Assembly: GCA_965368975.1 (NCBI GenBank)
Contig: CBDUPA010000026.1
Location: 5,488-69,487, forward strand
Direction: 5' to 3'
Length of the DNA stretch: 64,000 nucleotides
Source of the DNA: an uncultured bacterium
Lineage (GTDB): Bacteria > Acidobacteriota > Thermoanaerobaculia > Multivoradales > JAHZIX01
Part shown: one piece after another, positions 22,701 through 60,775 of the stretch
How positions within the stretch are numbered: the stretch's first letter is position 1
Layout: each line of letters begins with the position of its first letter
Program-made: the position numbers and the translations under genes
Notes under the pieces: generated by a model
What the model saw: the letters and a program-made list of their open reading frames with translations, nothing else
Told to the model about the DNA's origin: nothing
Database searches by the model: none

Positions 22701-25700
22701 CCAGGATCACCGTGCCGCCTTGGGTCAGCGGCAGGAACAGCTCGTAGATCGACAGGTCGAAGCACACCGAGGTCACTGCCGCCACGCCCGCCAGCTCGTC
22801 CGGCGGGAAGATACGCGCCGCCCAAGTCAGCATGGCGACGGCGTTGCGGTGGCTGATCTCGACACCTTTGGGGCGGCCGGTCGAGCCGGAGGTATAGATG
22901 AAGTAGGCGCGCTGCCGCGGGTCGACGCGGGACGCTGCCGGGGCTGCCGCTGCGTCTGCTGTCGGCGCCGCGAGGTCCAGCTCGTCGAGGAACAGCAGTT
23001 CTGGCCCCTTGGCCGTTTCGTCGGAGGGCTTGTCGACCAGCTCATCGAACAAATGGGCCAGCGCGCGGTCGGTGAGCACGCGTCGAGCACGCGTGTCCTG
23101 CACCATGAAGGCGAGGCGCTGCGGTGGGTAGGTGGGGTCGAGGGGCAGGTAGCTGCCACCCGCTTCCAGCACCGCCAGCAGGGCGACGACCAGTTCGGGC
23201 GTGCGCGGCAGGCAGACCGCCACCGCCTCCTCGGGCGCCACGCCGCGCCGACGCAGTAGCGCGGCCAGTCGGTGTACCCGCTGCCACAGCTGGGCGTAGG
23301 CCAGGGTCTCGACCGCCTCGGAGGTTCCTCCGGAGGTCCCCTCGGCGACTCCTTCGGCGATCAGCGCCGTCTGCGCTGGCGTCTGTGCCGCCTGCTGGGC
23401 CACCAGAGCGTGCAGCGTCACATCGGGCGGCAGCGGGCGCTCGGTGCGGTTGACCAGGTCGATCAGCTGGCGGTCGGCGGCCGGTACCAGCGGTAGTCGC
23501 CAAAGCGGCAGTTCGGGGTGGTCGAGCACGCCCTGGAGCAGCAGTCGATAGGCCTCGAACAGGCGTTCGATGGTGGTGGCGTCGAACAGTGCGGTGGCGT
23601 ACTCGACGGACACGCGCAATCCCTCGGCGCGGTCGAAGATGGTCACTTCGACGTCGAACTTGGCCGTGCCGCTGTGGCCGTGGAGCGGGCGCTGGTCGAG
23701 CCCGGGAAGCGACGGGGCCAGTTCCATCGCCAGCACCTGGAACAGCACCTGGAAGAACGGCGTGCGTGCGGCATCGCGCGTCGGTTCGAGCTCCTGCACC
23801 AGCCGCTCGAAGGGCAGCGCCTGGTGGATCTGCGCTCCCACCACCGTCTGGCGCGTGTTGGCCAGCAGATCGGCGAAAGTGCGGTTGCCATGCTCTGCAG
23901 CGGCCAGGTCGAGGCGCAGTACCAGGGTGTTGGCGAACAGGCCCACCAGGTTCTCGAACTCGGTGCGGTAGCGGCCGGCCGACGGCGTGCCTACAGCCAG
24001 GTCGTGGTGGCCGCTGAAGCGTGCGAAGAGGACGTAGAAGGCAGCGAGAAGTGCCGTGAACAGCGTCTCACCGTGCTGGCGGGCGAGGCCACGCAGGCCC
24101 TCGGACAGCTCGCCGGGCAGGGTCACTACATGCAGTGCGCCGTCCGCCTGCTGCACCCTCGGCCGTGGTCGGTCCGCGGGCAGGTCGGCCGGCTCCAGAC
24201 CATCGAGCTGACGGCGCCAGTAGGTCACCAGTCGCTGCTGCTCGGCTTCCTCCAGCCAGCTCGCCTGCCAGGCGGCGAAGTCGGCGTACTGCAGCTCGGG
24301 CTCGGGTAGCGGTGACGCTTGCCCCTGGTGGAAGACGTTGTAGAGCTGCGACATCTCCTTGGCGATCAGGTCCTGCGACCAGCCGTCCGTGGCGATGTGG
24401 TGGATGTTGAGGATCAAGACGTGCAGCTCGGCACCTGCCCTCAGCAGACGCGTGCGCCATACCGCGTCGTGCTCCAGGTCGAAGGGCGCGCCGGCTTCTC
24501 GCGCCACCAAGTCCCTGGACTTGCGCTGGCGGTCGGCGTCCTGGAGGCCGCTCAGGTCGACGATCTCGAGGTGCCAGGGCCGTGGCGGATCGACCAGCGC
24601 CACCGGCTCGCCGTCGCGACTGCCGTAGCGCGTGCGCAGCACGGCATGGCGGCGGGCGACATCGGCCAGGGCGCGGTCGAGGGCCTGGATGTCGAGGGCA
24701 CCGTGTAGCTCGAAGGCGGAAGGGATGTTGTAGAGCGCCGAACTCAGCTCCAGCTGGTGTAGGAACCACAGTCGCCGCTGGCCGAAGGAGAGCGGTGCTG
24801 GCCGCGTCGGGTCGAGGCGCGGAATCGGTGGCAGCGCCGCCGCCGTCGAGGTGCCGGCCGCCTGGACCTCTTGGATGCGCCGCGCCAGCGCGGCGACGGT
24901 GGGGTGCTCGAAGATCTCGTGCAGCGACAGTTCCAGGCCCAGGATGTCGCGCACGCGAGCCAGCAGCTGGGTAGCCAGCAGCGAGTGACCACCGAGGGCG
25001 AAGAAGCTGGTCTCGACGCCCACCCGCTCGGCGCCCAGCACCTCGCACCATAGCGCCGCGATTTGTCGCTCGAGATCGTTGCGCGGCTCGACCAACTCAG
25101 CCTCGCTGACGCCAGCGTGTTCGAAGTCGAAGGCCGGCAGGGCTCGCCGATCGACCTTGCCATTGGCGTTCAATGGCAGTTCATGAAGGAACTGGAAGCC
25201 GGTGGGGACCAGGTACTCCGGCATGCTCTGCCCGAGGAACGACCGCAGCTCTTCGACGCTCGGTGCCGCGACCTCGGCTCCAATCACGACGAAGGCCACC
25301 AGCCGCTTGGAGCCTCGGCCGTCGTCCTGCATCACCACCGCCCGCTCCTTGATCGCCGGGTGCTGACCCAGCTGCGCCTCGATCTCACCCAGCTCGACGC
25401 GGAAGCCGCGCACCTTCACCTGGTGGTCGATGCGGCCGATGTAGTCCAGCACCCCGCTGGGTAGCCAGCGCACCAGGTCGCCGGTGCGGTAGACGCGCGC
25501 GCCAGGCTGCTCGTGACCCACGCGTGCCGAGCAGGGATGGGGGATGAAGACGCCCGCGGTCAGCGCCGGTCGCCGGTGGTAGCCCTGCGCCAGACCGGGG
25601 CCACCGACCACCAGCTCGCCCGCTGCACCAATTGGTGCCGGCCGTTGCCAGCGGTCGAGCACCAGTACCTCGGTGTTGCCGACCGGCTCGCCGATCGGTA

Positions 25701-27486: not shown

Positions 27487-27816
27487 CGGGTTCCTTTTCA
27501 AGGCAACAGCACAAATCAACCGCAAGGCAGCGCTTAGGCTGCCACGGTACTCGTTGCCCTGTGACCTGGCGACTGTGTTCAGTCTTTAGTGAAGAGGAAC
27601 CCGGATGTCCTGTGATCAGAGCATGCAGACGCTCGGGAGACGACCTTCGCCGAGCCCAAGCTGAGAGGTCCAGTATAGACCAGCTTCGATTTCGAGTGGT
27701 TGGGTTAGTACTGAGGTGCTCACGGTAAAGGTCTTCGCGCGGACTCTGTCTGGTTGTCGCGTCGGTGGCCGGCGCGTGATCGCGGATCTCGCTGAAGTAG
27801 TCGGCGGTCCGAGTGA

Positions 27817-33834: not shown

Positions 33835-36399
33835 TCAGATTTCGCGGCGCCGTAGGCGGCTGGCCAGGAAGACCAGGCTCAGAACACCCAGAAGGCTGGC
33901 CAGCAACGCCTGGTGGAGCGGCCGCCGGTCGGTTTCGATGCGCACCACATGACGACCGGGCGGCGTCTCGACGGCGATCCGGTGCAGGTTGGCGACGCGC
34001 ACACGGACGTCCTCGCCGTCGATGGTGGCGCGGTAGATCGGCAGGTGGACGCGTTGCCAGACCAGGGCTCCGGAGCCGACCGCGTCGACTTCGGCTTCCA
34101 GGTGTTCGGGGCCCTGGCTGAGGATACGCACGCGACCGGCGTTACTGCGTGCCGGGGAGCCAAGGGTCGGCGATCCGCCAGGTGGCCCATCTCCGGGTAG
34201 GACGACGGCGGAGCGCGGATCGAAGTCAGCGCGCAGTAGATGCTCGACGGCGGCGTTCAGATGTGGCGCGTGGTGGACGGTACTCGCATAGAAGACGTCT
34301 GGTGTCGTTCTGGGCAACTGGTACACGAAGACGTCAAGCTCGAAACGGTGCTCGTGTGCCAATTGCCGGGCGTTGGGCGCGGCGATGGGGCCGAGGGCAG
34401 CGGTGTCGAGCGGGCGGTTGAGGATGATGTGCGTGACGCCCCAGGACTCGAGCAGGCGCAGACGCTGGGTGTCGTCGAGTTGTGGCATCAGGTCGTGCGC
34501 GGCGCGGGTGAGGAAGGACGAAAGGCCCTCGGGGGACATGTTCAGCTCGTAGCGCCGGCCGTGGAAGACGCCGCTGACGCTGTACAACTCGTAGAACGCC
34601 CGCCGCTGTTGCCAGGCAGCGGTGGGTTCAGGGTAGACGCCCGGATAGTTGCGCCGGCCGAAGGTTCCGTCTTCGGTGCCGTGGACGACGCGCGCATTCG
34701 TCGGCACGTAGCGCAGCAAGGGCGGCGGCGTGCGGTAGGCGTCGGCGTCGTCGGTGGGCATGGCCGGCCGTAGCAGGGTGAGCTGCGCACCGGCGTGCAC
34801 CAGCAGCAGCAGTGCCGCGCCCAGCCGAGGACGCTTGCCCAGCACGGCGACGGCGGCCAGCAGCAGCGCCAGCACGCCCAGATTGAGCAGCGCCAGGCCA
34901 GCCCAGCGCAGGCGCTCGTGGCTCACGAAGTCGTCGGGAAAGTTGGTCGGCACCCAGCCGCGCAGCAGGCCGAAGGCGGCGTCGGGGGCGAAGGTGAGCC
35001 ACGCCCAGGCGAGTAGGTAGCCGAGCGTCAGCAGCAGCAAGAGCAAGCGCAGACGCTGCCGGACGTCGTCGCTGGCCGCTAGCACGCGCTCGAACCCCAG
35101 CCCGGCGAGCAGCGCGGCGCCGATGGCTACCGGCAGCATCAGCTTGACGGGATAGCGCAGCATGTCGAGGCCCGGCAGCCCGAGCAGGAAGTCGGCGATC
35201 GGGTTGTGGCGCCCCATCGAGAAGAACAGGCCGCCGGCCACCAGCAGCCAGGCCCACAGCCGTGAGGCCCACAGGGTGCGCTGTGCGGAGCGGCGCCAGC
35301 CCGAGACAGTGATCAGGGCGAGGGTCAGTAATCCGGGGTAGAGGCTGAGGAAGAAGGGCGGTAGCTCACTATAGAAACGGCCACCCCAGAAGCTGCCGTA
35401 GCGCAGCAGGTCGAAGCGGCCGAAGCACATCGGCAGGAACCAGTCCAGCGTTTGGGCGGGGTGGAAGCTCGACAGCGTGCGCGTGTCGGCCGAGTAGCCC
35501 TGGTGACCACGGTAGGAGATGGGCAAGATGCGCAACGTCTCGACGATCTGTGGCAGCGCGATCAGCGAGCCGCACAGCACGACCAGCACCAGTGGTGCCC
35601 AGCCCGAGGTCCAGGCACCGGAGAGCCAGGTGCTGGTCTCACTCTCGCTCAGTCCTAGACGCTGGCGCCAATGACGCAGCGTCCAGGCTCCGCGTCCTTC
35701 GCGCACCAGCACGCCGGTCGACGCCAGCGCCAGCGCCAGCACCGCCAGCACGGGTTCTCCGCCGAGCAGTAGCAGCGCCCACAGCACGCCGAGCACGGCG
35801 GCGTAACGGGCCCGGCGAGGGGCCCGTCTAGGTGCCGGCGTGTTGCTGTCGGCGGGCTCGGTCAGGCGCAGCGCAGCGGCGCACAGGGCGGGCGTCAAGG
35901 TGGCGACGGCGATCAGGTTGGTGAAGTTGAGGTGTGATACCAGGAAGCCGCTGAAGCCGTACGTGACCCCCGCCGCCCAGGCTGCTTCGCGTCGCAAGCC
36001 CCAGGCTCGGCCCAGCCAGAAGAAGGCCCAGGGGGCCAGAAGCCAGTGCAGCCAAAGGTGAGTGTTGAGCGCCCACAGCACCGGGGCGAAGAGGTAGAGC
36101 AGCTGCGTCGGGTAGAGCGGCACGCTGTTGGGATTGCCCAGCAACGGTTGCCCGCCGGCCAGGCCAGGTGCGATCAACGGCAAGGCCGGCCCCTGCGCGC
36201 CGTCCTCGGCACTCTGGAGTGCACGTGCCTGTTCAGCCTTCATCGCCAGGTGGACGTTGAACAGGTCGCGCAAGAAGAGCGTGCGCTGTCCCAGGGCCAG
36301 CGGCAGGACGGTCAGCGCCAGCAGGACCAGCACCGGCACTGTGAGCGGTAGCATCTCGCGAGCCGGTCGCTTCACGCGATCCTCCCGACGGATGGCCAT
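33835..36399 (-). CDS. Polytopic membrane protein, GT-C/YfhO-like putative glycosyltransferase (paralog 3)
   Basis: Many TM segments, a conserved TLFLRDLF first-loop motif, a large C-terminal extracytoplasmic domain and a final TM helix. It is a close paralog of 36372-38963. The start is uncertain (36399 or 36354). The ORF-track N-terminal extension is an out-of-frame overlap with the upstream paralog and is an artefact. Confidence 0.7.
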   Translation of the reverse strand: MAIRREDRVKRPAREMLPLTVPVLVLLALTVLPLALGQRTLFLRDLFNVHLAMKAEQARALQSAEDGAQGPALPLIAPGLAGGQPLLGNPNSVPLYPTQLLYLFAPVLWALNTHLWLHWLLAPWAFFWLGRAWGLRREAAWAAGVTYGFSGFLVSHLNFTNLIAVATLTPALCAAALRLTEPADSNTPAPRRAPRRARYAAVLGVLWALLLLGGEPVLAVLALALASTGVLVREGRGAWTLRHWRQRLGLSESETSTWLSGAWTSGWAPLVLVVLCGSLIALPQIVETLRILPISYRGHQGYSADTRTLSSFHPAQTLDWFLPMCFGRFDLLRYGSFWGGRFYSELPPFFLSLYPGLLTLALITVSGWRRSAQRTLWASRLWAWLLVAGGLFFSMGRHNPIADFLLGLPGLDMLRYPVKLMLPVAIGAALLAGLGFERVLAASDDVRQRLRLLLLLLTLGYLLAWAWLTFAPDAAFGLLRGWVPTNFPDDFVSHERLRWAGLALLNLGVLALLLAAVAVLGKRPRLGAALLLLVHAGAQLTLLRPAMPTDDADAYRTPPPLLRYVPTNARVVHGTEDGTFGRRNYPGVYPEPTAAWQQRRAFYELYSVSGVFHGRRYELNMSPEGLSSFLTRAAHDLMPQLDDTQRLRLLESWGVTHIILNRPLDTAALGPIAAPNARQLAHEHRFELDVFVYQLPRTTPDVFYASTVHHAPHLNAAVEHLLRADFDPRSAVVLPGDGPPGGSPTLGSPARSNAGRVRILSQGPEHLEAEVDAVGSGALVWQRVHLPIYRATIDGEDVRVRVANLHRIAVETPPGRHVVRIETDRRPLHQALLASLLGVLSLVFLASRLRRREI

Positions 36400-38963
36400 C
36401 GCCACAGCAGGAGCAGGCTGAGCAGACCGAACAGTGAACCGATCAGCGACAGCTGCAGCGGTCGACGGTCGGTCTCGATGCGCACGATGTGCCGCCCCGG
36501 CGGTGTCTCGACCGCGATGCGGTACAGATTGGCGACGCGCACCGTGGCCGGCTCTCCATCGACGGTGGCGTGGTAGAGCGGCAGGTGGGCTCGCTGCCAG
36601 ACCAGGGCGCCGCCGTCGCCGGTCCCGCCTGGACTCTCGGGGACCACCACCTCGACCTCCAGGTGCTCGCGTCCCTGGCTCAGGATGCGTACGTTGCCGG
36701 ACATCCCCGTGGCTGCCGGGCTCGACACGAGGCCGCCAGGTACCACGACGGCGGTGCGCGGATCGAAGTCGGCGCTCAGCAGGTGCTCGACGGCGGCGTT
36801 GAGGTGGGGTGCGGGCAGGATGGTGCCGGCGTGGAAGACTTGCGGCGTGGTGGCGGGCAGGGAGTAGACGAAGACGTCGACGTCGAAGCGTCGCTGGTGG
36901 CTGATCAGCTCGACGCGCTCGGCCGCGGTTACGTCCAGCGGACGGTTGAGGATCAGTCGCTCGACTCCCCAAGCCTCGAGTAGCCGCAGTCGCTGGGTGT
37001 CGTCGAGCTGCGGCATCAGGTCGTGGGCGGCGCGCGCCAGGAACGAGGACAGACCTTCTGGCGACAGGTTCAGCTCGTAACGCCGGTCGTTCAGGATGCC
37101 AGCGGCGCTGTACAGCTCATGAAAGACGCGTCGCTGCTGCCAAGCGGCGGTCGACTCAGGATAGACGCCCGGCACGTGTTCTTGGTCGAAGGCACCGTCT
37201 TCGCTACCGTGCAACACACGGGCACCAGGTGGCACGACTCCCAGCAGCGGCACCGCCTCGGTGTAGGCGGCCACTTCGTCGGTCGGCATGGCCGGCTGCA
37301 GGAAGAAGAGCTGCGAGCCAGCGTGGAGGCCGAGCAACAGCGTGGCGCTGAGCAGGACTACCCGCGGTTGCTGACGCATTCGGGCGGCCAGGAGGGTGAG
37401 GGCGAAGTAGAGCACCAGCAGACCGAGGCTGAGCACGCATAGCGCTTGCCAGCGTTCCACCTCGTTGAGCACGAAGTCGTCCGGAAAGCCGGCCGGTACC
37501 CAGCCGCGCAGCAGTGCGAAGGCTCTGTGCGGTAGTAGGTCGAGCAGCAGCCAGGCGCCGACGAAGACGGCGAGCAGGACTCCCAAGGCTCGGCGCAGTG
37601 CTGGCATTCCTGGGGACGGCATCCCGAGGGACGCTCCGGAAGCTTCCACGGACAGCCAGCAGCGCTGGAAGCCGAGGCCGGCGAGCAGCGACGCGCCGAG
37701 CACCACCGGCAGCATCAGCTTGATCGGGTAGCGCAACACCTGCAGGCCGGGTAGGCCGAGCAGGAAATCGGCGACCGGGTTGTGACGGCCGAGCGCGAAG
37801 AACAGCCCGACGGCGATCAGCGTCCAGGCCCACAGACGCAGGCGTCCGTATCCGTCACCGTATCCCTCGCTGAGTGCGCCTTTGGACCGCCGCCCCCCGC
37901 TGGCGCCAACCAGGGCGAAGATCAGCAGCCCCGGGTAGAGACTGAAGTAGAAGGGCGGCATCTCGTTGAAGAAACGGCCGCCCCAGAAGCTGCCGTAGCG
38001 TAGGAGATCCATGCGCCCGAACGCCGACGGCAGCAGCCATTCGAGCATCTGCGCGGGGTGCAGGCTGGTGGCCGTGCGCGTGGTTTCCGAGTAGCCTTGG
38101 TGCCCGCGGTACGAGATCGGCAAGATGCGCAGCGTTTCGACGATTTGCGGCAGGGCTACCAGGCTGCCGGCGGCCAGCGCCAGCACCAGTGGCAAGCTGC
38201 GCGAGCGCCAGTCGCCGCCCCGCAGGTGCTCGCGCCAGAAGTCGGGCCTCACCACCGTGTGTCCTTCGCGCGCCAGCACCGCCGTGACCGCCAGGCCGAG
38301 CGCCAGCACCGCCAGCAGCGGTTCGCCGCCCAGCAGCAGGAGCGCCCACAGCAATCCACTGAGAAGCGCGTAGCGGCCCCGTGGTTGAGTCGGCGGTTCA
38401 GGGGCTGCCGACGCGGACGCTGTGGACGATACCGGTTCGGTGACGCGCAGCACCGCCGCGATCAACGCCGGAGTGAGCGATGCGACGGCGACCAGGTTGG
38501 TGAAGTTGAGCTGCGAGATCAGGTAACCGGAAAAGCCGTAGGCGACGCCGGCCGCCCAGGCTGCTTCCCGGCGCAGGCCCCAGACGCGCGCCAGCCAGTA
38601 GAAGCTCCAGGGCGCGAGCAGCACGTGTAGCCACAGGTGGGCGTTGAGCGCCCAGAACAGCGGCGTGAACAGGTACAGCACGTTGGTGGGGTAGAGCGGC
38701 ACGCTGTTCGGGTTGCCGAGCAGCGGCTGGCCACCCGCCATGCCCGGCCCGACCAGCGCCAGCGCCGAGTCACCGCCGTCTGTGCCCAGCAGCGCTCGTG
38801 CCTGTTCGGCTTTCATCGCCAGGTGAACGTTGAACAAGTCGCGCAGAAAGAGGGTGCGTTCGCCACTGATCAGCGGCCAGAGAGCCAGCAGCAGGAGTAG
38901 CAACGCCGGTGCGGCGAGCAGCAGCAGCTTGCGCTGCTCGGCCGTGAGTCGAAGTCGAATCAT
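36372..38963 (-). CDS. Polytopic membrane protein, GT-C/YfhO-like putative glycosyltransferase (paralog 2)
   Basis: The start MIRLRLTAEQRK at 38963 forms an ATGA overlap with the stop of paralog 1. The architecture matches paralog 3. Confidence 0.72.
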   Translation of the reverse strand: MIRLRLTAEQRKLLLLAAPALLLLLLALWPLISGERTLFLRDLFNVHLAMKAEQARALLGTDGGDSALALVGPGMAGGQPLLGNPNSVPLYPTNVLYLFTPLFWALNAHLWLHVLLAPWSFYWLARVWGLRREAAWAAGVAYGFSGYLISQLNFTNLVAVASLTPALIAAVLRVTEPVSSTASASAAPEPPTQPRGRYALLSGLLWALLLLGGEPLLAVLALGLAVTAVLAREGHTVVRPDFWREHLRGGDWRSRSLPLVLALAAGSLVALPQIVETLRILPISYRGHQGYSETTRTATSLHPAQMLEWLLPSAFGRMDLLRYGSFWGGRFFNEMPPFYFSLYPGLLIFALVGASGGRRSKGALSEGYGDGYGRLRLWAWTLIAVGLFFALGRHNPVADFLLGLPGLQVLRYPIKLMLPVVLGASLLAGLGFQRCWLSVEASGASLGMPSPGMPALRRALGVLLAVFVGAWLLLDLLPHRAFALLRGWVPAGFPDDFVLNEVERWQALCVLSLGLLVLYFALTLLAARMRQQPRVVLLSATLLLGLHAGSQLFFLQPAMPTDEVAAYTEAVPLLGVVPPGARVLHGSEDGAFDQEHVPGVYPESTAAWQQRRVFHELYSAAGILNDRRYELNLSPEGLSSFLARAAHDLMPQLDDTQRLRLLEAWGVERLILNRPLDVTAAERVELISHQRRFDVDVFVYSLPATTPQVFHAGTILPAPHLNAAVEHLLSADFDPRTAVVVPGGLVSSPAATGMSGNVRILSQGREHLEVEVVVPESPGGTGDGGALVWQRAHLPLYHATVDGEPATVRVANLYRIAVETPPGRHIVRIETDRRPLQLSLIGSLFGLLSLLLLWRWPSVGRIA

Positions 38964-41578
38964 GTCTCTTCGTTCTCCCCAGAGCGCTGTGTCTTCTCCC
39001 CAGAGCGACCGCGGAGCAGCAGCAGCAAGCAGAGGAGCGCCGCGCTCAGGGCGACACCCGCCGCCGCCTTCTCCGGTGTCGCCGACGCCTCGACCACCAC
39101 GCGATGCCGTCCCGGAGGCACTTCGACGCCGAGCAGCAGCAGGTGGACGGGAAGGGTCCGCAAGCGTCGGCTGGCTCCGGGATCGGCGGCTGAATCCGAC
39201 GCGACTGCGGGCTCTGACGAGACTGCTGGCTCTGACGAGACAACCCGGGCTTCGAACAGAGGATGGTGCGCACGCCGCAGTACCGCGACGCCGCCTTCGC
39301 TGTCGACCTCGAACTCCAGTCGATCCGGCTCGGCGCGCAGGAGGCGCACACGTCCGGCGCCCTGATACCCACGACCTCGAGGCTCGTCCGCCTCGGCGAG
39401 CGGCGGTACCTGCACCTCGGCCAAGGGATCTGGACTGCTGTAGAGGCCCTTCAGAGCGGCGACCGGGTTGGACGCCACGTGCACCCGCTCGGGCCACCAG
39501 GCCGGCGGGGCACTGCCGTGGATACGCAGCAGATGACTCTCGACGCTCAGCCGGCGCGCCTGCGCGATCGGTTCGAAGCCGGGGAGCAGCGTCAACTCCG
39601 AGGGCAGCGCTCCATAGAGCACCAACGCTTCGACGCCGAGCACGCGCAGTTGATTCAGCCGAGCCGCCCACGACGCGCGTGCCAGGTTGACGTCCGCGAA
39701 CACCGTCAAGGCTGGCGCCATGCCTTCCAGGTTCGGTGCCAGTGGGTAGTGCAGGCCGTGCAGCTGACCGGGCGTCGGGTAGAGATCGCGCGCGCGCGCT
39801 CGCTGCTGCTCGCCCTGCGTCGCATCGGCGTAGTACGCCTGCGGCTTCCACAGCTCCAACAGTGTGTCCTGGTTGAGCACACCGGGACCGAGACCCAGTT
39901 GCTCGGCCGTTGGATCGCTTGTGTCCGACGCGTGCTGTGCCAGCACTTGCCGTGTCCAGGGCGGCACCTCGCGGTACGGCTCGATCTTCTCGGTCAGTAG
40001 CAGCGGCGCCAGCGGCAGCAGCGCGACCACCTGGAGTGCCACCACTGCGACCTTGCGCAGGTGTGCCGACCCGACCTTGGTGTCCGGCAGCCAGCGTTGA
40101 CTGCACAGTCCCGCGATCACCGCCAGGATCAGCGTACTGAAGGCCAGGTAGAAGCACGGCATCAGCCAGCGGAGACTGAGCGCTGTCTGCAAGGCTTCGT
40201 CCTCGGCCAGCCGCCACGGCCGCAGCGTCAGGACGGCCAGCACTGGTAGGAAGAGCACCGCCGCCGCGCCCAGGCAGCGACGTACCCAGGCCGCCGGCGC
40301 CGCGCACAGACGATCGAGCCCGAAGCCGGCGAGCAGTGGCAGCGCCAGCGCGAACCACACCAGGAAGCGCTCCGGGAAGCGGAAGACGCCGAAGCTCAGC
40401 TGGCCTAGAAGGCCACTCAACCAGCCACCGGTCATCGCCAGTAGCAGCGACGTCAAGGCCAGTCCGGCCCACAGTTTGACGGCTTGCTTCTGTCTTCGAA
40501 TGCCGACCAGAGTCACGAGGGCGAGCAGCAGAGCGACGATGCCGAAGTGCAGTGAGAAGAAGTACGGCATCAGCCGCTGGAGCTCGAGCACCCAGGTGCC
40601 CAGCAGGTCGTCGCGGAACGGCCAGCCGAAGGGAAAGGCCACGATCAGCTCCAACAAGCGCCACGGCTGGAGCGCGTAGCTGCTCACCACCGACTCCGGA
40701 TTGCCGTGCGCCCCACGGTAGCTGACCCCCAGAACACGCGCCGTCGCCACCACCTGCGGCAGCGCGATCAGCACGCCCGTCAGGCCGATGCCGAAGGTCA
40801 CGCCAAGTCCGTGGCGCCAGCGCCGCCACCAGCTCAGCTGTGCACCTGTGCTCGTCGAGGGAGGGGCGCTCAGTGGTACGGCCAGTAGCAACAGCGGCAC
40901 CACGCCGAGCAGTGCCGTCAAGGGCTCTCCGCCCAGAAGCGCCAGCCCGCACGCCAGGCCTCCCACTGCAATTCCGGACATGACCGCGTGCCGCCCGCTC
41001 GCGCGGGCCTTCACCGCTCCCACCAGTACCAGCGGCCACCAGGCCGCCACGGTGATCGTGTTGTAGAAGGTGAACAGGGTCAAGAACCAGCCGCTGCCCG
41101 CGTACGTCACTCCCGCCAACAACGACGCCGGCCGGCTCTGTCCGAGTGAGCGTGCCAGCCAGGTGAAGGTCAGCAGCGCCAGCAGCCAGTGCAGCACGAA
41201 GTGCAGGTTGAAGGCGTTCCAGAACGGCAACAGCAAGTAGAGCAGGTTGTCCGGATAGAACGCTTGGTAGGCCGGGTTGCCACGGTAGGGGTGACCCAGA
41301 CCCCAGGTCGGATCGAAGGCCGGAATCTTGCCCTGCCGCAGTTGCTCGGCACCGAAGGCTTTATGCGGCAGCAGATTCGAGAACACGTCGCGCAGGAAGA
41401 CCGTCTCCTGCCCGAGCGCCAGCGGCAAGCTGACGATCAACCAGACCAGCAGCACCCCCACCCATAGCCAGCGCAGTGGCGACCAGCCCTGCAACGGCCA
41501 GCCCAGCAGCCGAGGCTGTTGCCGGTCCAGAGTGGAGGACTCCGCGTCGAGATTCAGATCGGGATTTGCTGGCTCCAT
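38960..41578 (-). CDS. Polytopic membrane protein, GT-C/YfhO-like putative glycosyltransferase (paralog 1, more divergent)
   Basis: 872 aa with ETVFLRDVF in the first loop, multiple TM segments, a C-terminal soluble domain and a terminal TM helix. Confidence 0.7.
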   Translation of the reverse strand: MEPANPDLNLDAESSTLDRQQPRLLGWPLQGWSPLRWLWVGVLLVWLIVSLPLALGQETVFLRDVFSNLLPHKAFGAEQLRQGKIPAFDPTWGLGHPYRGNPAYQAFYPDNLLYLLLPFWNAFNLHFVLHWLLALLTFTWLARSLGQSRPASLLAGVTYAGSGWFLTLFTFYNTITVAAWWPLVLVGAVKARASGRHAVMSGIAVGGLACGLALLGGEPLTALLGVVPLLLLAVPLSAPPSTSTGAQLSWWRRWRHGLGVTFGIGLTGVLIALPQVVATARVLGVSYRGAHGNPESVVSSYALQPWRLLELIVAFPFGWPFRDDLLGTWVLELQRLMPYFFSLHFGIVALLLALVTLVGIRRQKQAVKLWAGLALTSLLLAMTGGWLSGLLGQLSFGVFRFPERFLVWFALALPLLAGFGLDRLCAAPAAWVRRCLGAAAVLFLPVLAVLTLRPWRLAEDEALQTALSLRWLMPCFYLAFSTLILAVIAGLCSQRWLPDTKVGSAHLRKVAVVALQVVALLPLAPLLLTEKIEPYREVPPWTRQVLAQHASDTSDPTAEQLGLGPGVLNQDTLLELWKPQAYYADATQGEQQRARARDLYPTPGQLHGLHYPLAPNLEGMAPALTVFADVNLARASWAARLNQLRVLGVEALVLYGALPSELTLLPGFEPIAQARRLSVESHLLRIHGSAPPAWWPERVHVASNPVAALKGLYSSPDPLAEVQVPPLAEADEPRGRGYQGAGRVRLLRAEPDRLEFEVDSEGGVAVLRRAHHPLFEARVVSSEPAVSSEPAVASDSAADPGASRRLRTLPVHLLLLGVEVPPGRHRVVVEASATPEKAAAGVALSAALLCLLLLLRGRSGEKTQRSGENEET

Positions 41579-57547: not shown

Positions 57548-57940
57548 ATGAGCAGCGGTGCGGACAAGGAAGTACGGATCGACAAGTGGCTGCAGATCGC
57601 CCGGGTTTTCAAGTCGCGCAGTCAGGCGACTCGAGCGTGCGAGTTGGGCCGCGTCAAGGTCAACGGCTACGTTACCAAGGCGCACCGTCGCCTGCAGCTA
57701 GAGGATCGCATTGCGGTGGAGAAGGGGGAGTGGACGCAGGTCGTGGTGGTGAAGGAATTGCGTGACAAGCCGCTTCCCAAGGCCGAAGCTGCGCGTCTGT
57801 ACGAGGATGAGAGCCCACCGAAGCCGGCACCGGATCCGCTGCGCAGGCTGATGCGGATGCCCGCTGCCAAGCGCGAGCGCGGCGCTGGCCGGCCGACCAA
57901 GAAGCAGCGGCGCGAGATGGACCGTCTCCGCGGAGACTGA
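57548..57940 (+). CDS. S4-domain RNA-binding protein (Hsp15/HslR-like)
   Basis: VRIDKWLQIARVFKSRSQATRACELGRVKVNG is an S4 motif, followed by a basic tail. GGAGGG lies 7 nt upstream of the ATG at 57548. Confidence 0.8.
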   Translation: MSSGADKEVRIDKWLQIARVFKSRSQATRACELGRVKVNGYVTKAHRRLQLEDRIAVEKGEWTQVVVVKELRDKPLPKAEAARLYEDESPPKPAPDPLRRLMRMPAAKRERGAGRPTKKQRREMDRLRGD

Positions 57941-57963
57941 TTTCCGCGGAGACTGATCTCCGC
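57927..57963. repeat. 16-bp x2.3 tandem repeat spanning the S4-gene stop codon
   Basis: TCCGCGGAGACTGATT, TCCGCGGAGACTGATC, then TCCGC. Confidence 0.9.
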
Positions 57964-58053
57964 TGAAATGGAGCTGGCGACCGGTTGGGCGATGGGGCTG
58001 CCTGGTGAAACGGGGCTGTCGAGGAGATCCCGCGGACATGCTTGCGCTCTTGG

Positions 58054-58088
58054 CAAAAAAATGCGTCGGGAGCTGCTAGCTCCCGACG
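58054..58088 (-). terminator. Strong rho-independent terminator on the minus strand
   Basis: Perfect 11-bp stem (58064-58088, 3-nt loop). On the minus strand it is followed by CA and then seven T residues. Confidence 0.8.
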
Positions 58089-58277
58089 GCAGAGGACAGC
58101 CGGTTACGGCTTCTGTTTCGAGTTGTCACCGAGTCGCTGGCGCTCTAGGGCCAGCTCAGCCATGGGGGCCAGCGGGTATGGAGGCCCATTCAGTGGTGCG
58201 AGGTCCGCATCTCAGTGGTAGAGGAGGAACTGTGAGATGACCCACTGAGATTGTGCGTGCGGTGCGGTTTCCTCACG
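58054..58277 (-). ncRNA. Candidate ~220-nt small RNA (promoter-to-terminator unit, no convincing ORF)
   Basis: The unit runs from a near-consensus promoter (TTGACA-17 nt-TAGACT) to the terminator above. An internal 10-bp stem (58209-58218 with 58242-58251) presents a CCUCCUC-containing loop. Confidence 0.5.
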
Positions 58278-58283
58278 ACCCGG

Positions 58284-58312
58284 AGTCTAGGCACTAGATC
58301 TTGAGTTGTCAA
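58284..58312 (-). promoter_or_regulatory. Sigma70-type promoter (minus strand)
   Basis: The -35 TTGACA is at 58312-58307 and the -10 TAGACT at 58289-58284, with a 17-nt spacer. Confidence 0.55.
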
Positions 58313-58338
58313 GGTGATGTCCATGTTCTGTTGACCAA
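58306..58338. promoter_or_regulatory. Three phased 11-bp direct repeats (CarH-operator-like)
   Basis: The units TTGTCAAGGTG, ATGTCCATGTT and CTGTTGACCAA fit nTGTnnAnnTn at 6/6, 6/6 and 5/6 specified positions. Confidence 0.5.
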
Positions 58339-58359
58339 ATCTGGACAGGCTGGTACAGT
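58331..58359 (+). promoter_or_regulatory. Sigma70-type promoter for the carH-like gene (predicts a leaderless mRNA)
   Basis: The -35 TTGACC, a 17-nt spacer and an extended -10 TGGTACAGT. Only 6 nt separate the -10 from the ATG at 58366. Confidence 0.55.
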
Positions 58360-58365
58360 CCCGCA

Positions 58366-59376
58366 ATGTCCAGTAAGCTGATTCACATGCCACTCCCTCG
58401 CTCGCTAGAGTCCGCGGTCCAGCAAGACGACGTTGCGCGCCATCCCATTGGGATTGTTGCACGCCGTACGGCGCTTAAGCCTGACCTGATCCGGGCCTGG
58501 GAGCGACGCTACCAGGCGGTGCAGCCACGGAGGACTGCAGGTCGACATCGCTTTTACAGCGATCTGGACATCGAGCGATTGACGCTGCTGCGTTTGGCGA
58601 CCGAGAATGGTCGCAGTATTGGGCAGATCGCAAGGCTGTCGCACCAGGAACTGCTGCAACTGGTGCGCGAGGATCAGCAGGCGGTGGGCAGCGTGCCCCT
58701 GCGGGGCGAGCCGGTTCTCAGTGATGGCCTCAGGGGCGCCGAGCAGTACCGCACCGCGTGCATGTCAGCGGTGGAAGGGCTGGAGGCGCGCGAGTTGGAG
58801 TTGTTGCTGGAGCAGGCCGCGGTCGACTTGAGTCGGCCGGTCCTGATCGAGGAAATGCTGGTTCCGCTTCTGCAGCAGATCGGTGACCGCTGGCGCGAGG
58901 GAAGCCTCCGGCCGATGCACGAGCATCTGAGCACGGCGGTGGTGCGCTCGTTCATCGGCACGATCCACGCCAACTCGCTGGTCGACGCGCACGCACCGCA
59001 GCTAGTGGCGACCACGCCGTCAGGGCAACGGCACGAGTTGGGAGCCTTGATGGTCGCCGGTATTGCAGCTTCGGAAGGCTGGCGGACGACCTATCTCGGG
59101 CCGGACCTGCCAGCGGAGGAAATTGTCGCGGCTTGCCGCCTGAAGGGGGCACGGGCACTGGCGCTGAGCCTGGTCTACCCGGCGGACGATCCGCTGCTGG
59201 GCGACAATCTTCTACTTCTAAGCAGACACCTGCCGGAGACCTGTTCGATTCTGATCGGAGGGGCCGCGGCACCCGCCTACCGTGAGTACTTGGACGCAAT
59301 CGGAGCCGTGGTCGTGGGGGACTTGACGTCATTCCGCGACGAACTGGGTAAGCTACGACTCCAGTCTAAAGTCTGA
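58366..59376 (+). CDS. carH: MerR-family, B12-binding photoreceptor-type transcriptional repressor (CarH/LitR family)
   Basis: MerR HTH (IGIVARRTALKPDLIRAWERRY). Wx9EH motif (WREGSLRPMHEH). B12-binding motifs RHELG...SL...GG. Confidence 0.8.
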   Translation: MSSKLIHMPLPRSLESAVQQDDVARHPIGIVARRTALKPDLIRAWERRYQAVQPRRTAGRHRFYSDLDIERLTLLRLATENGRSIGQIARLSHQELLQLVREDQQAVGSVPLRGEPVLSDGLRGAEQYRTACMSAVEGLEARELELLLEQAAVDLSRPVLIEEMLVPLLQQIGDRWREGSLRPMHEHLSTAVVRSFIGTIHANSLVDAHAPQLVATTPSGQRHELGALMVAGIAASEGWRTTYLGPDLPAEEIVAACRLKGARALALSLVYPADDPLLGDNLLLLSRHLPETCSILIGGAAAPAYREYLDAIGAVVVGDLTSFRDELGKLRLQSKV

Positions 59377-59419: not shown

Positions 59420-59455
59420 TCAGATCGGCTGTGTCTCTCAGATCGGCTGTGTCTC
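59420..59455. repeat. 18-bp x2 tandem duplication that includes the stop and last five codons of the 59438-60775 gene
   Basis: TCAGATCGGCTGTGTCTC occurs twice in perfect tandem. Confidence 0.95.
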
Positions 59456-60775
59456 GGAGCGTTGCTGGGCGCGCTCCAGGTAGGCGGCGATCTCGCGCAA
59501 CAGGCCCAAGGTCACCAGTTGCTTCTCGGCGGCGTTGACGAACAGGATCAGGGCCGCCATGACCTCGCGTCCGAGCTGCTGGCCCTGGAAGATGGGCAGC
59601 ATTTCCTGCGCTAGCTGCTGAATGCGCACCACCTCGCCGCGCCGAGCGTAGACCATCGCCAGGTCGAGCGACACGCGGGCGGCTTCGTAGCTCATGTTCA
59701 GCTCGAGGTAGCGTTGCTGTAGCTCCAGGTACTTCTCTTCGGCCTGGTCCAGGCGATCGGCAGCGGCGTCGAGGTCAGCGCCGGCCCAACGCAGCCGCAG
59801 CAGGTTGAGGCGGTCTCCGAGGCGCTCGCACACCTGGATGGCACCGGCGAGTTCACGCTGGGCGTCGGTGTCTCGTCCTTGGGCCATGAAGCAGAGGGAG
59901 AGGTTCTGGCGGGCGCAGACCACGAGCGAGCCCTCGCGCCAGGTGTCGATCTGGTCCAGACCTTGGTAGAGCAGGTCGACGACCGTGTCGAGGTCATCTG
60001 GGTCGCCGTCCACTGCCCGCCAAGCCAGATGTCGTACGACGCCTTGCTGGATGCGCGCGCGGCCGAGCTGGTGGTTATCGGAGGCGGCATCGTAGATGTC
60101 ACTCATAGCGTCGAGCAGCAAGTCGGCTTCTGCGTAGCGTGCCAGGTCGCACAGCAGGGAGACGCGCAAGGACAGCACTTCGGCGCGCAGGTAGGGATCG
60201 AGGCGCTCCTCGGCCGGCGTCGCGGAGTCGAGCAATCTGCGCGCTTCTTCCATCGCCTGCTCGGCGCCCGGCAAGTCGGAGCCGACGCGGCGGGAGTTGG
60301 CCAGGTAGGCCCAGGCGCGTGCCAGCAACCCGGAGCGTAGCCGGCGGTCGTAGTCAGTGGCGTCGAGGCGGCGCGCCACGGTCAAGCCGAGGGTCGCCAT
60401 GTCGACAGCTTGACGGCTGTCGTCGAACCAAGACTGGCGGCACTTCTCGAGCAGCATCTCGGCCAGCAGGTAGCTGCTGAAGCGTTCGTCGGCTCGAGCT
60501 AGCTGCAGCCGTACCTCGGACGGGCAGGCGAGTAGTTCAGCGTAGAGGACCGGCGCCAGAGAGCGGTCGCGGGCGGCAAGATCCTTGCCGTTGTGCAGGC
60601 GTTCCGTGACGTGCTCGATCGCCTGCCGGTAGTCTTCGTTGTCCCAGGCCGAGGCAGTCCGGTTCGACAGCTCGACCAGGTCGTCTTCGGAGTCTGTTTC
60701 CTGCTGTACCCAGGGGAAGGCCAGAACGCGTGCTTGGCCGGAATTAGAGTCGGACATGTCGGGTCTCCGCGTCAA
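59438..60775 (-). CDS. Helical-repeat (TPR-like) protein of unknown function
   Basis: 445-aa ORF rich in Leu/Ala/Arg helix-pair-like repeats. No TM segment or signal peptide. Confidence 0.6.
   Translation of the reverse strand: MTRRPDMSDSNSGQARVLAFPWVQQETDSEDDLVELSNRTASAWDNEDYRQAIEHVTERLHNGKDLAARDRSLAPVLYAELLACPSEVRLQLARADERFSSYLLAEMLLEKCRQSWFDDSRQAVDMATLGLTVARRLDATDYDRRLRSGLLARAWAYLANSRRVGSDLPGAEQAMEEARRLLDSATPAEERLDPYLRAEVLSLRVSLLCDLARYAEADLLLDAMSDIYDAASDNHQLGRARIQQGVVRHLAWRAVDGDPDDLDTVVDLLYQGLDQIDTWREGSLVVCARQNLSLCFMAQGRDTDAQRELAGAIQVCERLGDRLNLLRLRWAGADLDAAADRLDQAEEKYLELQQRYLELNMSYEAARVSLDLAMVYARRGEVVRIQQLAQEMLPIFQGQQLGREVMAALILFVNAAEKQLVTLGLLREIAAYLERAQQRSETQPI

What the first reader, a model, noticed from the sequence alone, without database searches (positions are those of the whole stretch)
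58284..58368. Back-to-back promoters sharing three phased 11-bp repeats that fit the CarH operator consensus; carH itself appears leaderless
Seen: three contiguous 11-bp units start at 58306, 58317 and 58328, with TGT at exactly 11-bp phasing. They read TTGTCAAGGTG, ATGTCCATGTT and CTGTTGACCAA. They fit nTGTnnAnnTn, the reverse complement of nAnnTnnACAn, at 6/6, 6/6 and 5/6 specified positions. Unit 1 overlaps the -35 of the minus-strand promoter. Unit 3 overlaps the -35 (TTGACC, 58331-58336) of a plus-strand promoter with an extended -10 (TGGTACAGT). That -10 ends 6 nt before the ATG at 58366, and there is no Shine-Dalgarno sequence. Established (from my recollection of the structural and biochemical CarH work, to be verified): CarH tetramers bind three tandem 11-bp direct repeats of roughly this consensus overlapping the promoter -35. 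Inference: the repressor would autoregulate a leaderless carH mRNA and simultaneously gate the divergent sRNA candidate.
Basis: partly seen in the sequence, partly recalled or inferred. Interest (0 to 1): 0.65.

Follow-up and report, generated by a model that had tools for sequence, protein, structure and literature searches.

The report
Shared CarH operator, leaderless carH, divergent sRNA
A vitamin-B12 light-sensor repressor gene (carH) of an uncultured Acidobacteriota-like bacterium sits back-to-back with a small non-coding RNA gene, and both promoters are covered by one cluster of 11-bp CarH-type repeats, so light probably switches on the repressor's own leaderless mRNA and the small RNA together.

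Summary
Three phased TGTnnA units lie at 58307, 58318 and 58329. The pattern is unique in the 64 kb window, with 0 expected by chance. They fit the published CarH repeat nAnnTnnACAn on the minus strand.

The ORF at 58366-59376 is a CarH by domains, motifs and fold, except for one invariant E-to-Q change in the B12 motif.

Comparison with 76 independent carH loci refines the anatomy. What is conserved is two minus-oriented repeats (the first holds the -35 of the divergent promoter) plus two plus-oriented repeats (TTGACC, the carH -35, then TGGACA 11 bp on). It is not conserved as a minus-oriented unit in the two closest relatives.

A -10 box 6-10 nt before the start codon, with no Shine-Dalgarno sequence, is family-wide, so a leaderless carH is well supported.

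The divergent promoter drives a terminated 44-223 nt transcript in 21 lineages. It has no conserved ORF or Rfam match and carries a CU-rich (CCUCC-like) tract.

Autoregulation, and one operator serving divergent promoters, are already known for CarH. The mixed-orientation repeat layout and an RNA target appear new. No transcript or binding data exist.

The parts
58306..58316 (-). Repeat L1. The minus strand reads CACCTTGACAA (nAnnTnnACAn, full fit). Its TTGACA core (58312-58307) is the -35 of the divergent (sRNA) promoter.
   Evidence: The TGTCAA core is conserved in A1. The left pair occurs in 34 of 76 independent loci against 0.007 expected.
58317..58327 (-). Repeat L2. The minus strand reads AACATGGACAT (full fit). 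It lies upstream of the sRNA -35 and is not a promoter element.
   Evidence: The TGTCCA core is invariant in the three nearest lineages and conserved family-wide.
58328..58338 (-). The minus strand reads TTGGTCAACAG, a full fit to nnnnTnnACAn. It covers the same DNA as R1, read in the opposite direction. It is not conserved as a minus-oriented unit.
   Evidence: in phase here. CGT in L001, and 12 bp rather than 11 bp from L2 in L002. Absent in distant loci.
58327..58337 (+). Repeat R1, TCTGTTGACCA. Its core TTGACC (58331-58336) is the carH -35. It is a pseudo-repeat (TnnACC).
   Evidence: The pair TTGAC-n6-TnGAC occurs in 41 of 76 independent loci against 0.002 expected.
58338..58348 (+). Repeat R2, AATCTGGACAG. 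Its core TGGACA (58342-58347) is a full fit. It lies in the spacer of the carH promoter, exactly 11 bp after R1.
   Evidence: T(A/G)GAC(G/A) at +11 from the -35 is present in every locus that has the architecture, although promoter spacers are normally unconstrained.
58351..58359 (+). Extended -10 of the carH promoter, TGGTACAGT. The first T of TACAGT is 12 nt before the ATG.
   Evidence: TGnTAnnCT is conserved at the same place in relatives. TANNNT lies at -11 to -16 in 51 of 76 loci against a 2.1% background.
58366..59376 (+). carH coding sequence (336 aa). The predicted transcription start coincides with A58366 of the ATG, making the mRNA leaderless.
   Evidence: The conserved ATG lies 6 nt after the -10 in the window, L001 and L002.
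58284..58289 (-). -10 box (TAGACT) of the divergent promoter.
   Evidence: Conserved as TAGACT or TATACT in L001 and L002. The unconstrained columns -23, -19 and -18 show the TAnnnT signal in 18-21 of 29 loci.
58056..58277 (-). Candidate small RNA, about 220 nt. Hairpin 1 has arms at 58242-50 and 58210-18 and a 23-nt loop carrying UUCCUCCUCU (58220-29). A small invariant hairpin lies at 58098-58111, followed by a CU-rich linker GUCCUCUGCC (58088-97). The ends are predicted, not mapped.
   Evidence: (z = -4.2). No Rfam family and no conserved ORF.
58055..58088 (-). Intrinsic terminator of the small RNA: an 11-bp GC stem (58064-58088) followed by U7 (58055-58061).
   Evidence: Two stem pairs show compensatory changes across the window, L001 and L002.

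Best explanation
The segment from about 58303 to 58350 is a CarH operator shared by two back-to-back sigma-70-type promoters.

In the dark, the AdoCbl-bound oligomer of the CarH encoded at 58366-59376 binds 11-bp repeat units that tile this segment. Two units are in minus orientation: L1, which contains the -35 of the divergent promoter, and L2. Two are in plus orientation: R1, which is the carH -35, and R2, which lies in the carH promoter spacer. Occupancy hides both -35 hexamers from RNA polymerase.

Light photolyses AdoCbl, the oligomer falls apart, and both promoters fire. One makes a leaderless carH mRNA that starts at the A of the ATG (negative autoregulation that restocks the sensor). 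The other makes a terminated non-coding RNA of about 220 nt. This RNA exposes CU-rich, anti-Shine-Dalgarno-like tracts and most likely pairs with the ribosome-binding sites of unknown target mRNAs.

Shown here (in silico):
- the repeats, their statistics and their conservation;
- the CarH identity of the protein;
- the conserved promoter-to-ATG geometry;
- the conserved terminated divergent transcript.

Inferred:
- binding, light response, stoichiometry and the orientation of each DNA-binding domain;
- the two transcription start sites;
- the function of the RNA.
For: Repeats and operator:
- The three-unit pattern is unique in the window, with 0 expected.
- The published consensus matches.
- In 76 independent carH loci, the left pair occurs upstream of carH in 34, the right pair in 41 and both in 24. 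Expectation is 0.007 and 0.002 per locus.
- L2 and R2 are conserved although they are not promoter elements.
- The distance from the inner left core to the inner right core falls into classes of 13-15, 24-27 and 36 bp. These are steps of one 11-bp unit, so all units keep one register and one face of the DNA.

Protein:
- MerR_1 + B12-binding_2 + B12-binding domains.
- Wx9EH motif and QxHxxG-x41-SxV-x27-GG motif.
- The best PDB sequence hit is TtCarH at E = 2e-24, with an identical RxWERRY recognition helix and PRRTxGxHRxYS wing.
- The AlphaFold model has pLDDT 88, and its top 50 fold hits are all TtCarH.

Leaderless carH:
- The ATG lies 6 nt after the -10 in all three close lineages.
- TANNNT lies at -11 to -16 in 51 of 76 loci, and only 4 of 76 have a Shine-Dalgarno-like core.
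- This is the modal geometry of leaderless genes (PMC3160421).

Small RNA:
- A promoter plus terminator is predicted in 21 lineages.
- A YCCYCY tract is present in 20 of 21, against 16.5% of random windows.
- Folding z-scores run from -3.3 to -5.

Precedent: one CarH operator represses two divergent promoters in S. cellulosum, and litR/carH is autoregulated in Thermus and Streptomyces.
Against: - There is no transcript, start-site or binding data for this organism or its relatives.
- All characterised CarH operators use repeats of a single orientation. How a CarH oligomer would contact oppositely oriented units is unknown.
- R1 is imperfect (TnnACC).
- The B12 motif has Q where characterised CarH proteins have E (alignment A2).
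- The body of the small RNA is poorly conserved beyond the closest relative, and no target was found in the window.
- The promoter and terminator calls are consensus matches only.
Confidence: 0.7

Rival explanations
1. Thermus-type operator. The functional site is just the three same-orientation repeats L1-L2-L3 (58306-58338). They are bound by three DNA-binding domains of one tetramer. TGGACA at 58342 is not contacted.
For: All three units fit nnnnTnnACAn perfectly in 11-bp phase. This is the exact design of the T. thermophilus operator and of the S. cellulosum PcrtSc2 operator, with the -35 inside the promoter-proximal repeat. Three-in-phase clusters ending in TGTTGA recur in Ignavibacteriales loci L065 and L078.
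Against: The third unit is CGT in L001 and shifted by 1 nt in L002, and it is absent in distant relatives. In contrast, TTGACN plus TnGAC at +11 is conserved in all of them. The conserved R2 core inside a promoter spacer is left unexplained.
Confidence: 0.2
2. Two independent operators that merely abut. One CarH oligomer on L1-L2 controls the sRNA promoter and another on R1-R2 controls carH, with no single bridging complex.
For: In some phyla the minus-oriented and plus-oriented clusters are 86-130 bp apart, each at its own promoter. Each pair is in the sense orientation for the promoter it overlaps.
Against: In 32 of 36 loci the two pairs are 36 bp or less apart, and the distances come in 11-bp steps. 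That is unexpected for unlinked sites. Characterised CarH proteins need three to four units for stable binding, and each pair alone has only two.
Confidence: 0.2
3. The repeats are only promoter hexamers plus chance, or they are bound by a regulator other than CarH.
For: TTGACA and TTGACC are ordinary -35 boxes. No binding data exist.
Against: L2 and R2 are not promoter elements, yet they are conserved at exact 11-bp spacing in front of carH genes of several phyla. Enrichment over background is more than 60-fold. The protein's DNA-reading residues match those of TtCarH, which reads TnnACA.
Confidence: 0.05
4. carH is not leaderless. It is transcribed from further upstream, or translated from ATG 58387.
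For: The start site is unmapped. An in-frame ATG exists at codon 8 in the window and in L001.
Against: No other plus-strand promoter lies upstream. The first ATG and its 6-nt distance from the -10 are conserved even in L002, which lacks the second ATG. In many relatives this ATG is the only start codon before the helix-turn-helix. There is no Shine-Dalgarno sequence before either ATG.
Confidence: 0.1
5. The minus-strand transcript is not a trans-acting sRNA. It is a small-protein mRNA, a cis-antisense RNA against the convergent S4-domain gene, or transcriptional noise stopped by a terminator.
For: Short ORFs exist: a 28-aa ORF with a GTG at the predicted start, a 19-aa ORF in the window, and a leaderless 39-aa ORF in L002. 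In L032 the transcript would run straight into the S4 gene. No target was found.
Against: None of the ORFs is conserved, even between the window and L001. The -10 box, the terminator and the CU-rich tract are conserved across lineages whose sequence is otherwise unalignable. The terminator lies before the S4 gene in nearly all loci.
Confidence: 0.2

Closest known systems
Thermus thermophilus CarH (LitR/TTHB100) and its operator (PDB 5C8D, 5C8E)
   Same: - Same domain order, Wx9EH motif, lower-axial His motif and fold.
- 11-bp repeats nAnnTnnACAn, with one repeat containing the -35.
- The gene is autoregulated and sits at a divergent promoter region.
   Different: - About 26% identity.
- The linker is longer, with an extra helix (93-108) and a disordered stretch at 110-119. 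There is also a disordered 25-aa N-terminal tail.
- Q replaces E in ExHxxG.
- The conserved units here are of mixed orientation (2+2), not three in one direction.
- The partner promoter drives a small RNA, not crtB.
Sorangium cellulosum CarH operators PcrtSc1 (crtI-carH) and PcrtSc2 (crtE-crtD), PMC9304148
   Same: One operator of three 11-bp units lies in a divergent intergenic region, overlaps the promoter elements of both genes (one of them carH) and represses both in a B12- and dark-dependent way.
   Different: The targets there are carotenoid genes and the repeats are described in a single orientation. Leaders were not reported as absent.
Bacillus megaterium CarH and Cystobacter CarH four-unit operators
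   Same: Four contiguous 11-bp units are bound on one face of the DNA by four DNA-binding domains, and pseudo-repeats are tolerated. The window's L1-L2-R1-R2 also tile about 43 bp contiguously.
   Different: All four units are direct repeats in those systems. Here the right two are inverted.
Leaderless ('TA-led') bacterial genes, PMC3160421
   Same: TANNNT with its first T about 12 nt before the start codon and no Shine-Dalgarno sequence. The window has exactly -12.
   Different: That class was described mainly for Actinobacteria and Deinococcus-Thermus. Here it is a trait of one gene family in Acidobacteriota-like lineages, inferred and not mapped.
Light- or photooxidative-stress-induced sRNAs such as cyanobacterial PsrR1 and Rhodobacter PcrZ/SorY (from my own knowledge, not checked here)
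   Same: A small terminated RNA whose synthesis would rise in light, with a C/U-rich single-stranded tract suited to pairing with ribosome-binding sites.
   Different: There is no sequence or Rfam relationship. The proposed control is by a B12 photoreceptor repressor. The held literature gave no report of an RNA gene in a CarH/LitR regulon.

Membership tests
CarH/LitR class I (AdoCbl photoreceptor repressor), protein | N-terminal MerR-type winged-helix DNA-binding domain | tested here: met
   PF13411 MerR_1 at E = 8e-13, residues 28-92. The recognition helix and wing align with TtCarH.
CarH/LitR class I (AdoCbl photoreceptor repressor), protein | C-terminal four-helix bundle plus Rossmann B12-binding domain | tested here: met
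   PF02607 and PF02310. The model has pLDDT 88. The B12-binding domain superposes on TtCarH at TM 0.8 and about 3 Å rmsd, and the top 50 PDB fold hits are all TtCarH.
CarH/LitR class I (AdoCbl photoreceptor repressor), protein | Wx9EH motif capping the adenosyl group (PMC8156234) | tested here: met
   W176-REGSLRPMH-E186-H187. W176, E186 and H187 are invariant in alignment A2.
CarH/LitR class I (AdoCbl photoreceptor repressor), protein | ExHx2G-x41-SxV/T-x22-27-GG B12-binding motif | tested here: inconclusive
   Q221-R-H223-E-L-G226, then x41, S268-L-V270, x27, G298-G299. All spacings and the His, Gly, Ser and GG residues are met. However, the first residue is Q, not E, and it is invariant in 30 relatives.
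CarH/LitR class I (AdoCbl photoreceptor repressor), protein | AdoCbl-dependent oligomerisation and light-reversible DNA binding | not testable with these tools
   This needs purified protein.
CarH operator (DNA) | Tandem 11-bp repeats nnnnTnnACAn, two to four units including pseudo-repeats | tested here: met
   Three perfect units on the minus strand, unique in the window with 0 expected. In addition, TGGACA on the plus strand lies 11 bp after TTGACC.
CarH operator (DNA) | Overlap with the -35 and/or -10 of the regulated promoter | tested here: met
   L1 contains the TTGACA -35 of the minus promoter. L3/R1 contain the TTGACC -35 of the carH promoter. The promoters are predicted, not mapped.
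CarH operator (DNA) | All units in the same orientation (true of every characterised operator) | tested here: inconclusive
   This is met by L1-L3 in this window. However, the units conserved across relatives are two minus-oriented plus two plus-oriented.
Leaderless mRNA | Transcription start at, or within a few nt of, the start codon | not testable with these tools
   No RNA runs hold this sequence. Indirect evidence: the -10 ends 6 nt before the ATG here, in L001 and in L002, and TANNNT lies at -11 to -16 in 51 of 76 relatives.
Leaderless mRNA | No Shine-Dalgarno sequence, and an AUG start | tested here: met
   The sequence before the ATG is CCCGCA. A Shine-Dalgarno-like core is present in only 4 of 76 relatives.
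Any described RNA family (Rfam 15) | Covariance-model match | tested here: not met
   No hit at gathering score in the window or in 14 related loci, and only noise at E up to 10.

The most novel reading that the evidence does not exclude
In this branch of the CarH family the operator is a dyad-like array: two repeats in one orientation and two in the other. The units are kept in a single 11-bp register, with 0, 1 or 2 units skipped. One AdoCbl-CarH oligomer uses all four DNA-binding domains on it, a binding mode not seen in the Thermus, Bacillus or myxobacterial systems. Its conserved second output is a light-induced small RNA with an anti-Shine-Dalgarno tract. That would be the first riboregulator in a B12-photoreceptor regulon, conserved across Acidobacteriota next to an Hsp15-like S4-domain gene.
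Probability: 0.4. Interest if true: 0.7.

Novelty: new variant of a known kind. Interest (0 to 1): 0.55.

Why it matters
CarH is the model B12-based photoreceptor and a widely used optogenetic part. Its known outputs are carotenoid genes, photolyase genes and sigma-factor or activator genes. Its known operators are same-direction repeats.

If the reading here holds, three things follow.
- CarH can read oppositely oriented repeat pairs held in one helical register. This constrains models of how its flexibly tethered DNA-binding domains are deployed and offers new operator designs.
- Light control in a large, uncultured group (Acidobacteriota and neighbouring phyla) would pass through a small RNA, adding a post-transcriptional arm to a B12-photoreceptor regulon.
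- The sensor is made from a leaderless mRNA throughout this group. If the co-induced RNA acts on Shine-Dalgarno sites, a leaderless carH message would escape it. That is a speculation suggested by the pairing of the two features.

All of this can be tested with a 60-bp probe, one purified protein and two reporter fusions.

Tried and rejected
- **Rfam.** The window at gathering score, 57900-58450 at E up to 10, and 14 related loci all gave nothing beyond noise.
- **Public reads.** Only two DNA metagenome runs hold the sequence, and no RNA run does. The start sites could therefore not be mapped.
- **Exact 20-mer search.** I searched the invariant sRNA block in metagenome contigs. The 12 hits were not sRNA or carH loci. 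Eleven lie at the rplU-prp junction of other bacteria and one lies inside a hydantoinase-like gene. I treat these as chance or compositional matches. No further sRNA homologues were gained.
- **Small-ORF hypothesis for the minus transcript.** ORFs of 28, 19 and 39 aa exist, but none is conserved between the window, L001 and L002. Rejected.
- **Target search.** I ran RNAduplex with the two CU tracts against all start regions in the window. Only GC-rich noise on spurious ORFs came out. This is uninformative and needs the whole genome.
- **Other CarH sites in the window.** None was found. The only other near-match (58531-58558, 2 mismatches) is inside carH and fits chance.
- **Consensus structure of the short sRNAs.** RNAalifold on a MAFFT alignment recovered only part of the terminator stem. 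The alignment is not structure-aware, so I did not build a covariance model.
- **Primary papers not held in the library.** Jost 2015, Fernandez-Zapata 2018, Ortiz-Guerrero 2011 and Takano 2015 were unavailable. I relied on the 2021 review and the 2022 paper from the same group.
- **Circularity.** The information-content profile is circular at the columns my regular expression fixed. Only the unconstrained columns are used as evidence. One search repeats the test without that circularity.
Full report
**1. The observation**

- The three units are TTGTCAAGGTG (58306-16), ATGTCCATGTT (58317-27) and CTGTTGACCAA (58328-38).
- The plus promoter is TTGACC (58331-36), a 17-bp spacer, then TGGTACAGT (58351-59), CCCGCA and ATG at 58366.
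- The minus promoter is TTGACA (58312-07), a 17-bp spacer, then TAGACT (58289-84).

An independent consensus scan finds both promoters: 4 sites in 2.2 kb against 0.2 expected. It also finds a strong minus-strand terminator at 58088-58064 followed by a T-run. The phased pattern TGTnnA-n5-TGTnnA-n5-TGTnnA occurs once in the 64 kb window on both strands. Dinucleotide shuffles give 0.00 expected, and none of 100 shuffles had a hit. 58366 is the first possible start codon of the ORF.

**2. The protein is a CarH**

- The 336-aa product has MerR_1, B12-binding_2 and B12-binding domains.
- Its best match among solved structures is Thermus thermophilus CarH (5C8D, 3WHP) at E = 2e-24. The RxWERRY end of the recognition helix and the PRRTxGxHRxYS wing are identical.
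- It carries the Wx9EH motif at 176-187.
- It carries the B12 motif with correct spacings: QxHxxG, x41, SxV, x27, GG from residue 221. The 2021 review states that these two motifs define CarH homologues (PMC8156234).
- The one deviation is Q221 in place of E. It is invariant in 30 relatives.
- An AlphaFold model (pLDDT 88) has TtCarH chains as its 50 best PDB fold matches. The B12-binding domain superposes at TM about 0.8 and about 3 Å.
- The first 25 residues and residues 110-119 of the linker are predicted to be disordered.
- Relatives at 45-57% identity are almost all from Acidobacteriota or Thermoanaerobaculia MAGs. Further members come from Latescibacterota, Gemmatimonadota, Ignavibacteriales and others. 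Only two closer lineages exist: P0002 at 82% and P0003 at 62%.

**3. The published consensus**

CarH binds tandem 11-bp direct repeats nAnnTnnACAn, later written nnnnTnnACAn. Thermus has three, Bacillus four, and myxobacteria up to five repeats or pseudo-repeats, with the -35 inside one of them.

On the MINUS strand the three window units read TTGGTCAACAG, AACATGGACAT and CACCTTGACAA. All match T5 and A8-C9-A10. The last one carries the TTGACA -35 of the minus-strand promoter. The canonical sense-oriented three-repeat operator thus belongs to the divergent promoter, and its distal repeat overlaps the carH -35.

In Sorangium cellulosum a single CarH site in a divergent intergenic region was footprinted and represses both promoters, including crtI-carH. 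litR/carH autoregulation is known in Thermus and Streptomyces.

**4. What relatives show about the operator**

The two closest lineages (L001; L002-L004) keep the same gene order: TrkA-like gene, S4-domain gene, a gap of about 300-370 bp, then carH. They also keep both promoters. TGTCAA, TGTCCA, TTGAC and CTGGAC are invariant in that alignment. The third TGT, however, is CGT in L001, and in L002 it sits 12 bp rather than 11 bp from the second.

I then looked at the carH upstream regions of 79 GTDB loci. One architecture recurs: [TGTCAA n5 TGTCCA], a spacer, [TTGACA n5 T(A/G)GAC(G/A)], TGnTAnnCT, 6-10 nt, then ATG. In other words:
- two repeats in minus orientation, the outer one being the -35 of a divergent promoter;
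- two repeats in plus orientation, the first being the carH -35 and the second lying in the promoter spacer.

In the window the plus-oriented pair is TTGACC (58331) and TGGACA (58342).

A test that does not depend on my regular expression used 76 loci outside the window's clade and looked within 200 nt upstream of carH. The left pair occurs in 34 loci, the right pair in 41 and both in 24. Background expectation is 0.007 and 0.002 per 200 nt. L2 and R2 are not promoter elements, so their conservation at exact 11-bp spacing argues for protein contacts.

The start-to-start distance from the inner left core to the inner right core falls into three classes:
- 13-15 bp: the window, L001, L002 and three lineages of other phyla;
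- 24-27 bp: 24 loci;
- 36 bp: 2 loci.

These are steps of one 11-bp unit. Written as full 11-mers, the centre-to-centre distances are about 11, 22 and 33 bp. All units therefore keep one register, and roughly one face of the helix, with 0, 1 or 2 units skipped.

In the window the four units tile 58306-58348 contiguously. The octamer TGTTGACC approximates the overlap of both cores, TGTnnACA. The two readings therefore predict contact over the same DNA. They differ in the orientation of one DNA-binding domain and in whether 58338-48 is bound.

A few lineages have the two clusters 86-130 bp apart, so the clusters can also work separately.

**5. Leaderless carH**

- In the window, L001 and L002 the -10 hexamer ends exactly 6 nt before a conserved ATG, although the surrounding sequence has diverged.
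- In many relatives this ATG is the only start codon between the upstream stop and the helix-turn-helix.
- Across 76 independent loci, TANNNT with its first T at -11 to -16 is present in 51 (background 2.1%).
- In 40 of those loci a -35 matching at least 5 of 6 positions lies at 16-18 bp (background 0.075%).
- Only 4 loci have a Shine-Dalgarno-like core.
- This is the signature used to call leaderless genes, with a mode near -12 (PMC3160421). The window sits at exactly -12.

The start site itself could not be checked, because no RNA run holds the sequence.

**6. The divergent transcript**

From the minus promoter to the terminator the window would make an RNA of about 220 nt (58277-58056). No Rfam family matches it. 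It folds better than all 200 shuffles, with z = -4.2. Its layout is:
- a hairpin whose 23-nt loop carries UUCCUCCUCU (58220-29);
- a small hairpin (58098-111);
- a CU-rich linker GUCCUCUGCC (58088-97);
- the terminator.

L001 folds the same way, with z = -4.15 and the loop CAGUCCCUCCUCUUC on a stem of different sequence. Two terminator pairs show compensatory changes. Short ORFs exist, but none is conserved even between the window and L001.

In distant loci the gap between the S4-domain gene and the operator is only about 85-250 nt. On the minus strand it contains a -10 box 17 bp from the TTGACA. The unconstrained alignment columns show the TAnnnT signal in 18-21 of 29 loci. Then comes a tiny transcript of 44-67 nt, or 130-165 nt in some loci. 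The short forms fold as a 13-15 nt single-stranded tail such as UUCCCUCCGAUG, followed by a terminator hairpin, with z from -3.3 to -5. A YCCYCY tract is present in 20 of 21 predicted transcripts, against 16.5% of random 75-nt windows. The window's 3' module aligns with these short forms. None matches Rfam.

A CarH-operator-controlled, terminated, CU-rich small RNA is therefore a conserved partner of carH in this group. Its sequence suggests pairing with GGAGG-type ribosome-binding sites. That function is inferred. No target was found within the window.

**7. Mechanism proposed**

In the dark, AdoCbl-CarH occupies about 58303-58350 and hides both -35 boxes. In light, it is released. The leaderless carH mRNA is then made, which gives negative autoregulation and resupplies the sensor, and the small RNA is made alongside it.

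My confidence in each part:

| Claim | Confidence |
|---|---|
| CarH binds this site | about 0.8 |
| carH is leaderless, or has a leader of 4 nt or less | about 0.75 |
| The minus-strand RNA is a real, regulated transcript | about 0.7 |
| The RNA acts by anti-Shine-Dalgarno pairing | about 0.35 |
| A single oligomer contacts all four mixed-orientation units | about 0.4 |

**8. Comparison and novelty**

Already known for CarH:
- 11-bp repeats overlapping the -35;
- autoregulation;
- one operator serving two divergent promoters.

New relative to the literature I could search:
- the conserved mixed-orientation 2+2 layout in a fixed 11-bp register;
- the family-wide leaderless carH;
- an RNA gene as the conserved second target.

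I therefore file it as a new variant of a known kind.

**9. Limits**

- All promoter, terminator, start-site and binding statements are predictions from sequence and conservation.
- The relatives are MAG contigs, and related sequences are not independent samples.
- The primary structural and biochemical papers were not available to me. I used statements from the same laboratory's 2021 review and 2022 paper.

Noticed in passing
window 13735-27525 (-): A single 4596-aa ORF encodes a hybrid NRPS-PKS. It has 3 AMP-binding, 3 condensation and 4 PP-binding domains, a KS-AT module and a terminal NAD_binding_4 reductase. The large neighbouring ORFs at 33835-36972 and 36372-41039 have no Pfam match.
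   Followed up: partly
window 58366-59376, residue Q221: The B12-binding motif reads QxHxxG, where characterised CarH proteins have ExHxxG. The Q is invariant in 30 relatives of this branch. It may alter the His-acid-Ser triad that tunes the lower axial ligand.
   Followed up: partly
window 58092-58111; loci L084-L095: The invariant 20-mer of the sRNA 3' module (AGCCGUAACCGGCUGUCCUC on the RNA strand) is identical, in the same sense, to a hairpin-plus-U-run at the rplU-prp junction of other soil bacteria (11 contigs). There it also encodes the Prp N-terminus RDSRNRLSS. This is probably chance. If it is not, the sRNA carries only the 3' arm of that hairpin and could pair with its 5' arm.
   Followed up: partly
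window 57926-57957: A 16-bp tandem duplication, (C/T)TCCGCGGAGACTGAT twice, spans the stop codon of the S4-domain gene (stop at 57938-40). Only weak sub-threshold Rfam noise maps there.
   Followed up: no
L039 3184-4939 (also L054, L057, L068, L073): In Latescibacterota the same 2+2 repeat array and a near-leaderless promoter sit in front of a 190-aa secreted fasciclin (FAS1)-like gene, which is followed by carH. The regulon partner therefore differs between phyla (the fasciclin assignment is from reading the sequence, not from a Pfam run).
   Followed up: partly
L014, L035 (and two HTH anchors in L007, L010, L019, L020, L044): Some loci carry a second, divergently oriented MerR-B12 paralogue between the S4-domain gene and the operator, beyond the tiny terminated RNA. 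This may be a CarH/CarA-like pair.
   Followed up: no
L032 about 3870-3890: Only 16 nt separate the S4-domain gene's stop codon from the left repeat, and no terminator is found. The divergent transcript would therefore run antisense into the S4 gene. This hints at a possible cis-antisense relation between the RNA and the conserved Hsp15-like neighbour.
   Followed up: no
window 59438-60775 (-): The conserved 445-aa gene that converges on carH (also present in L001 and L002) has no Pfam domain.
   Followed up: no
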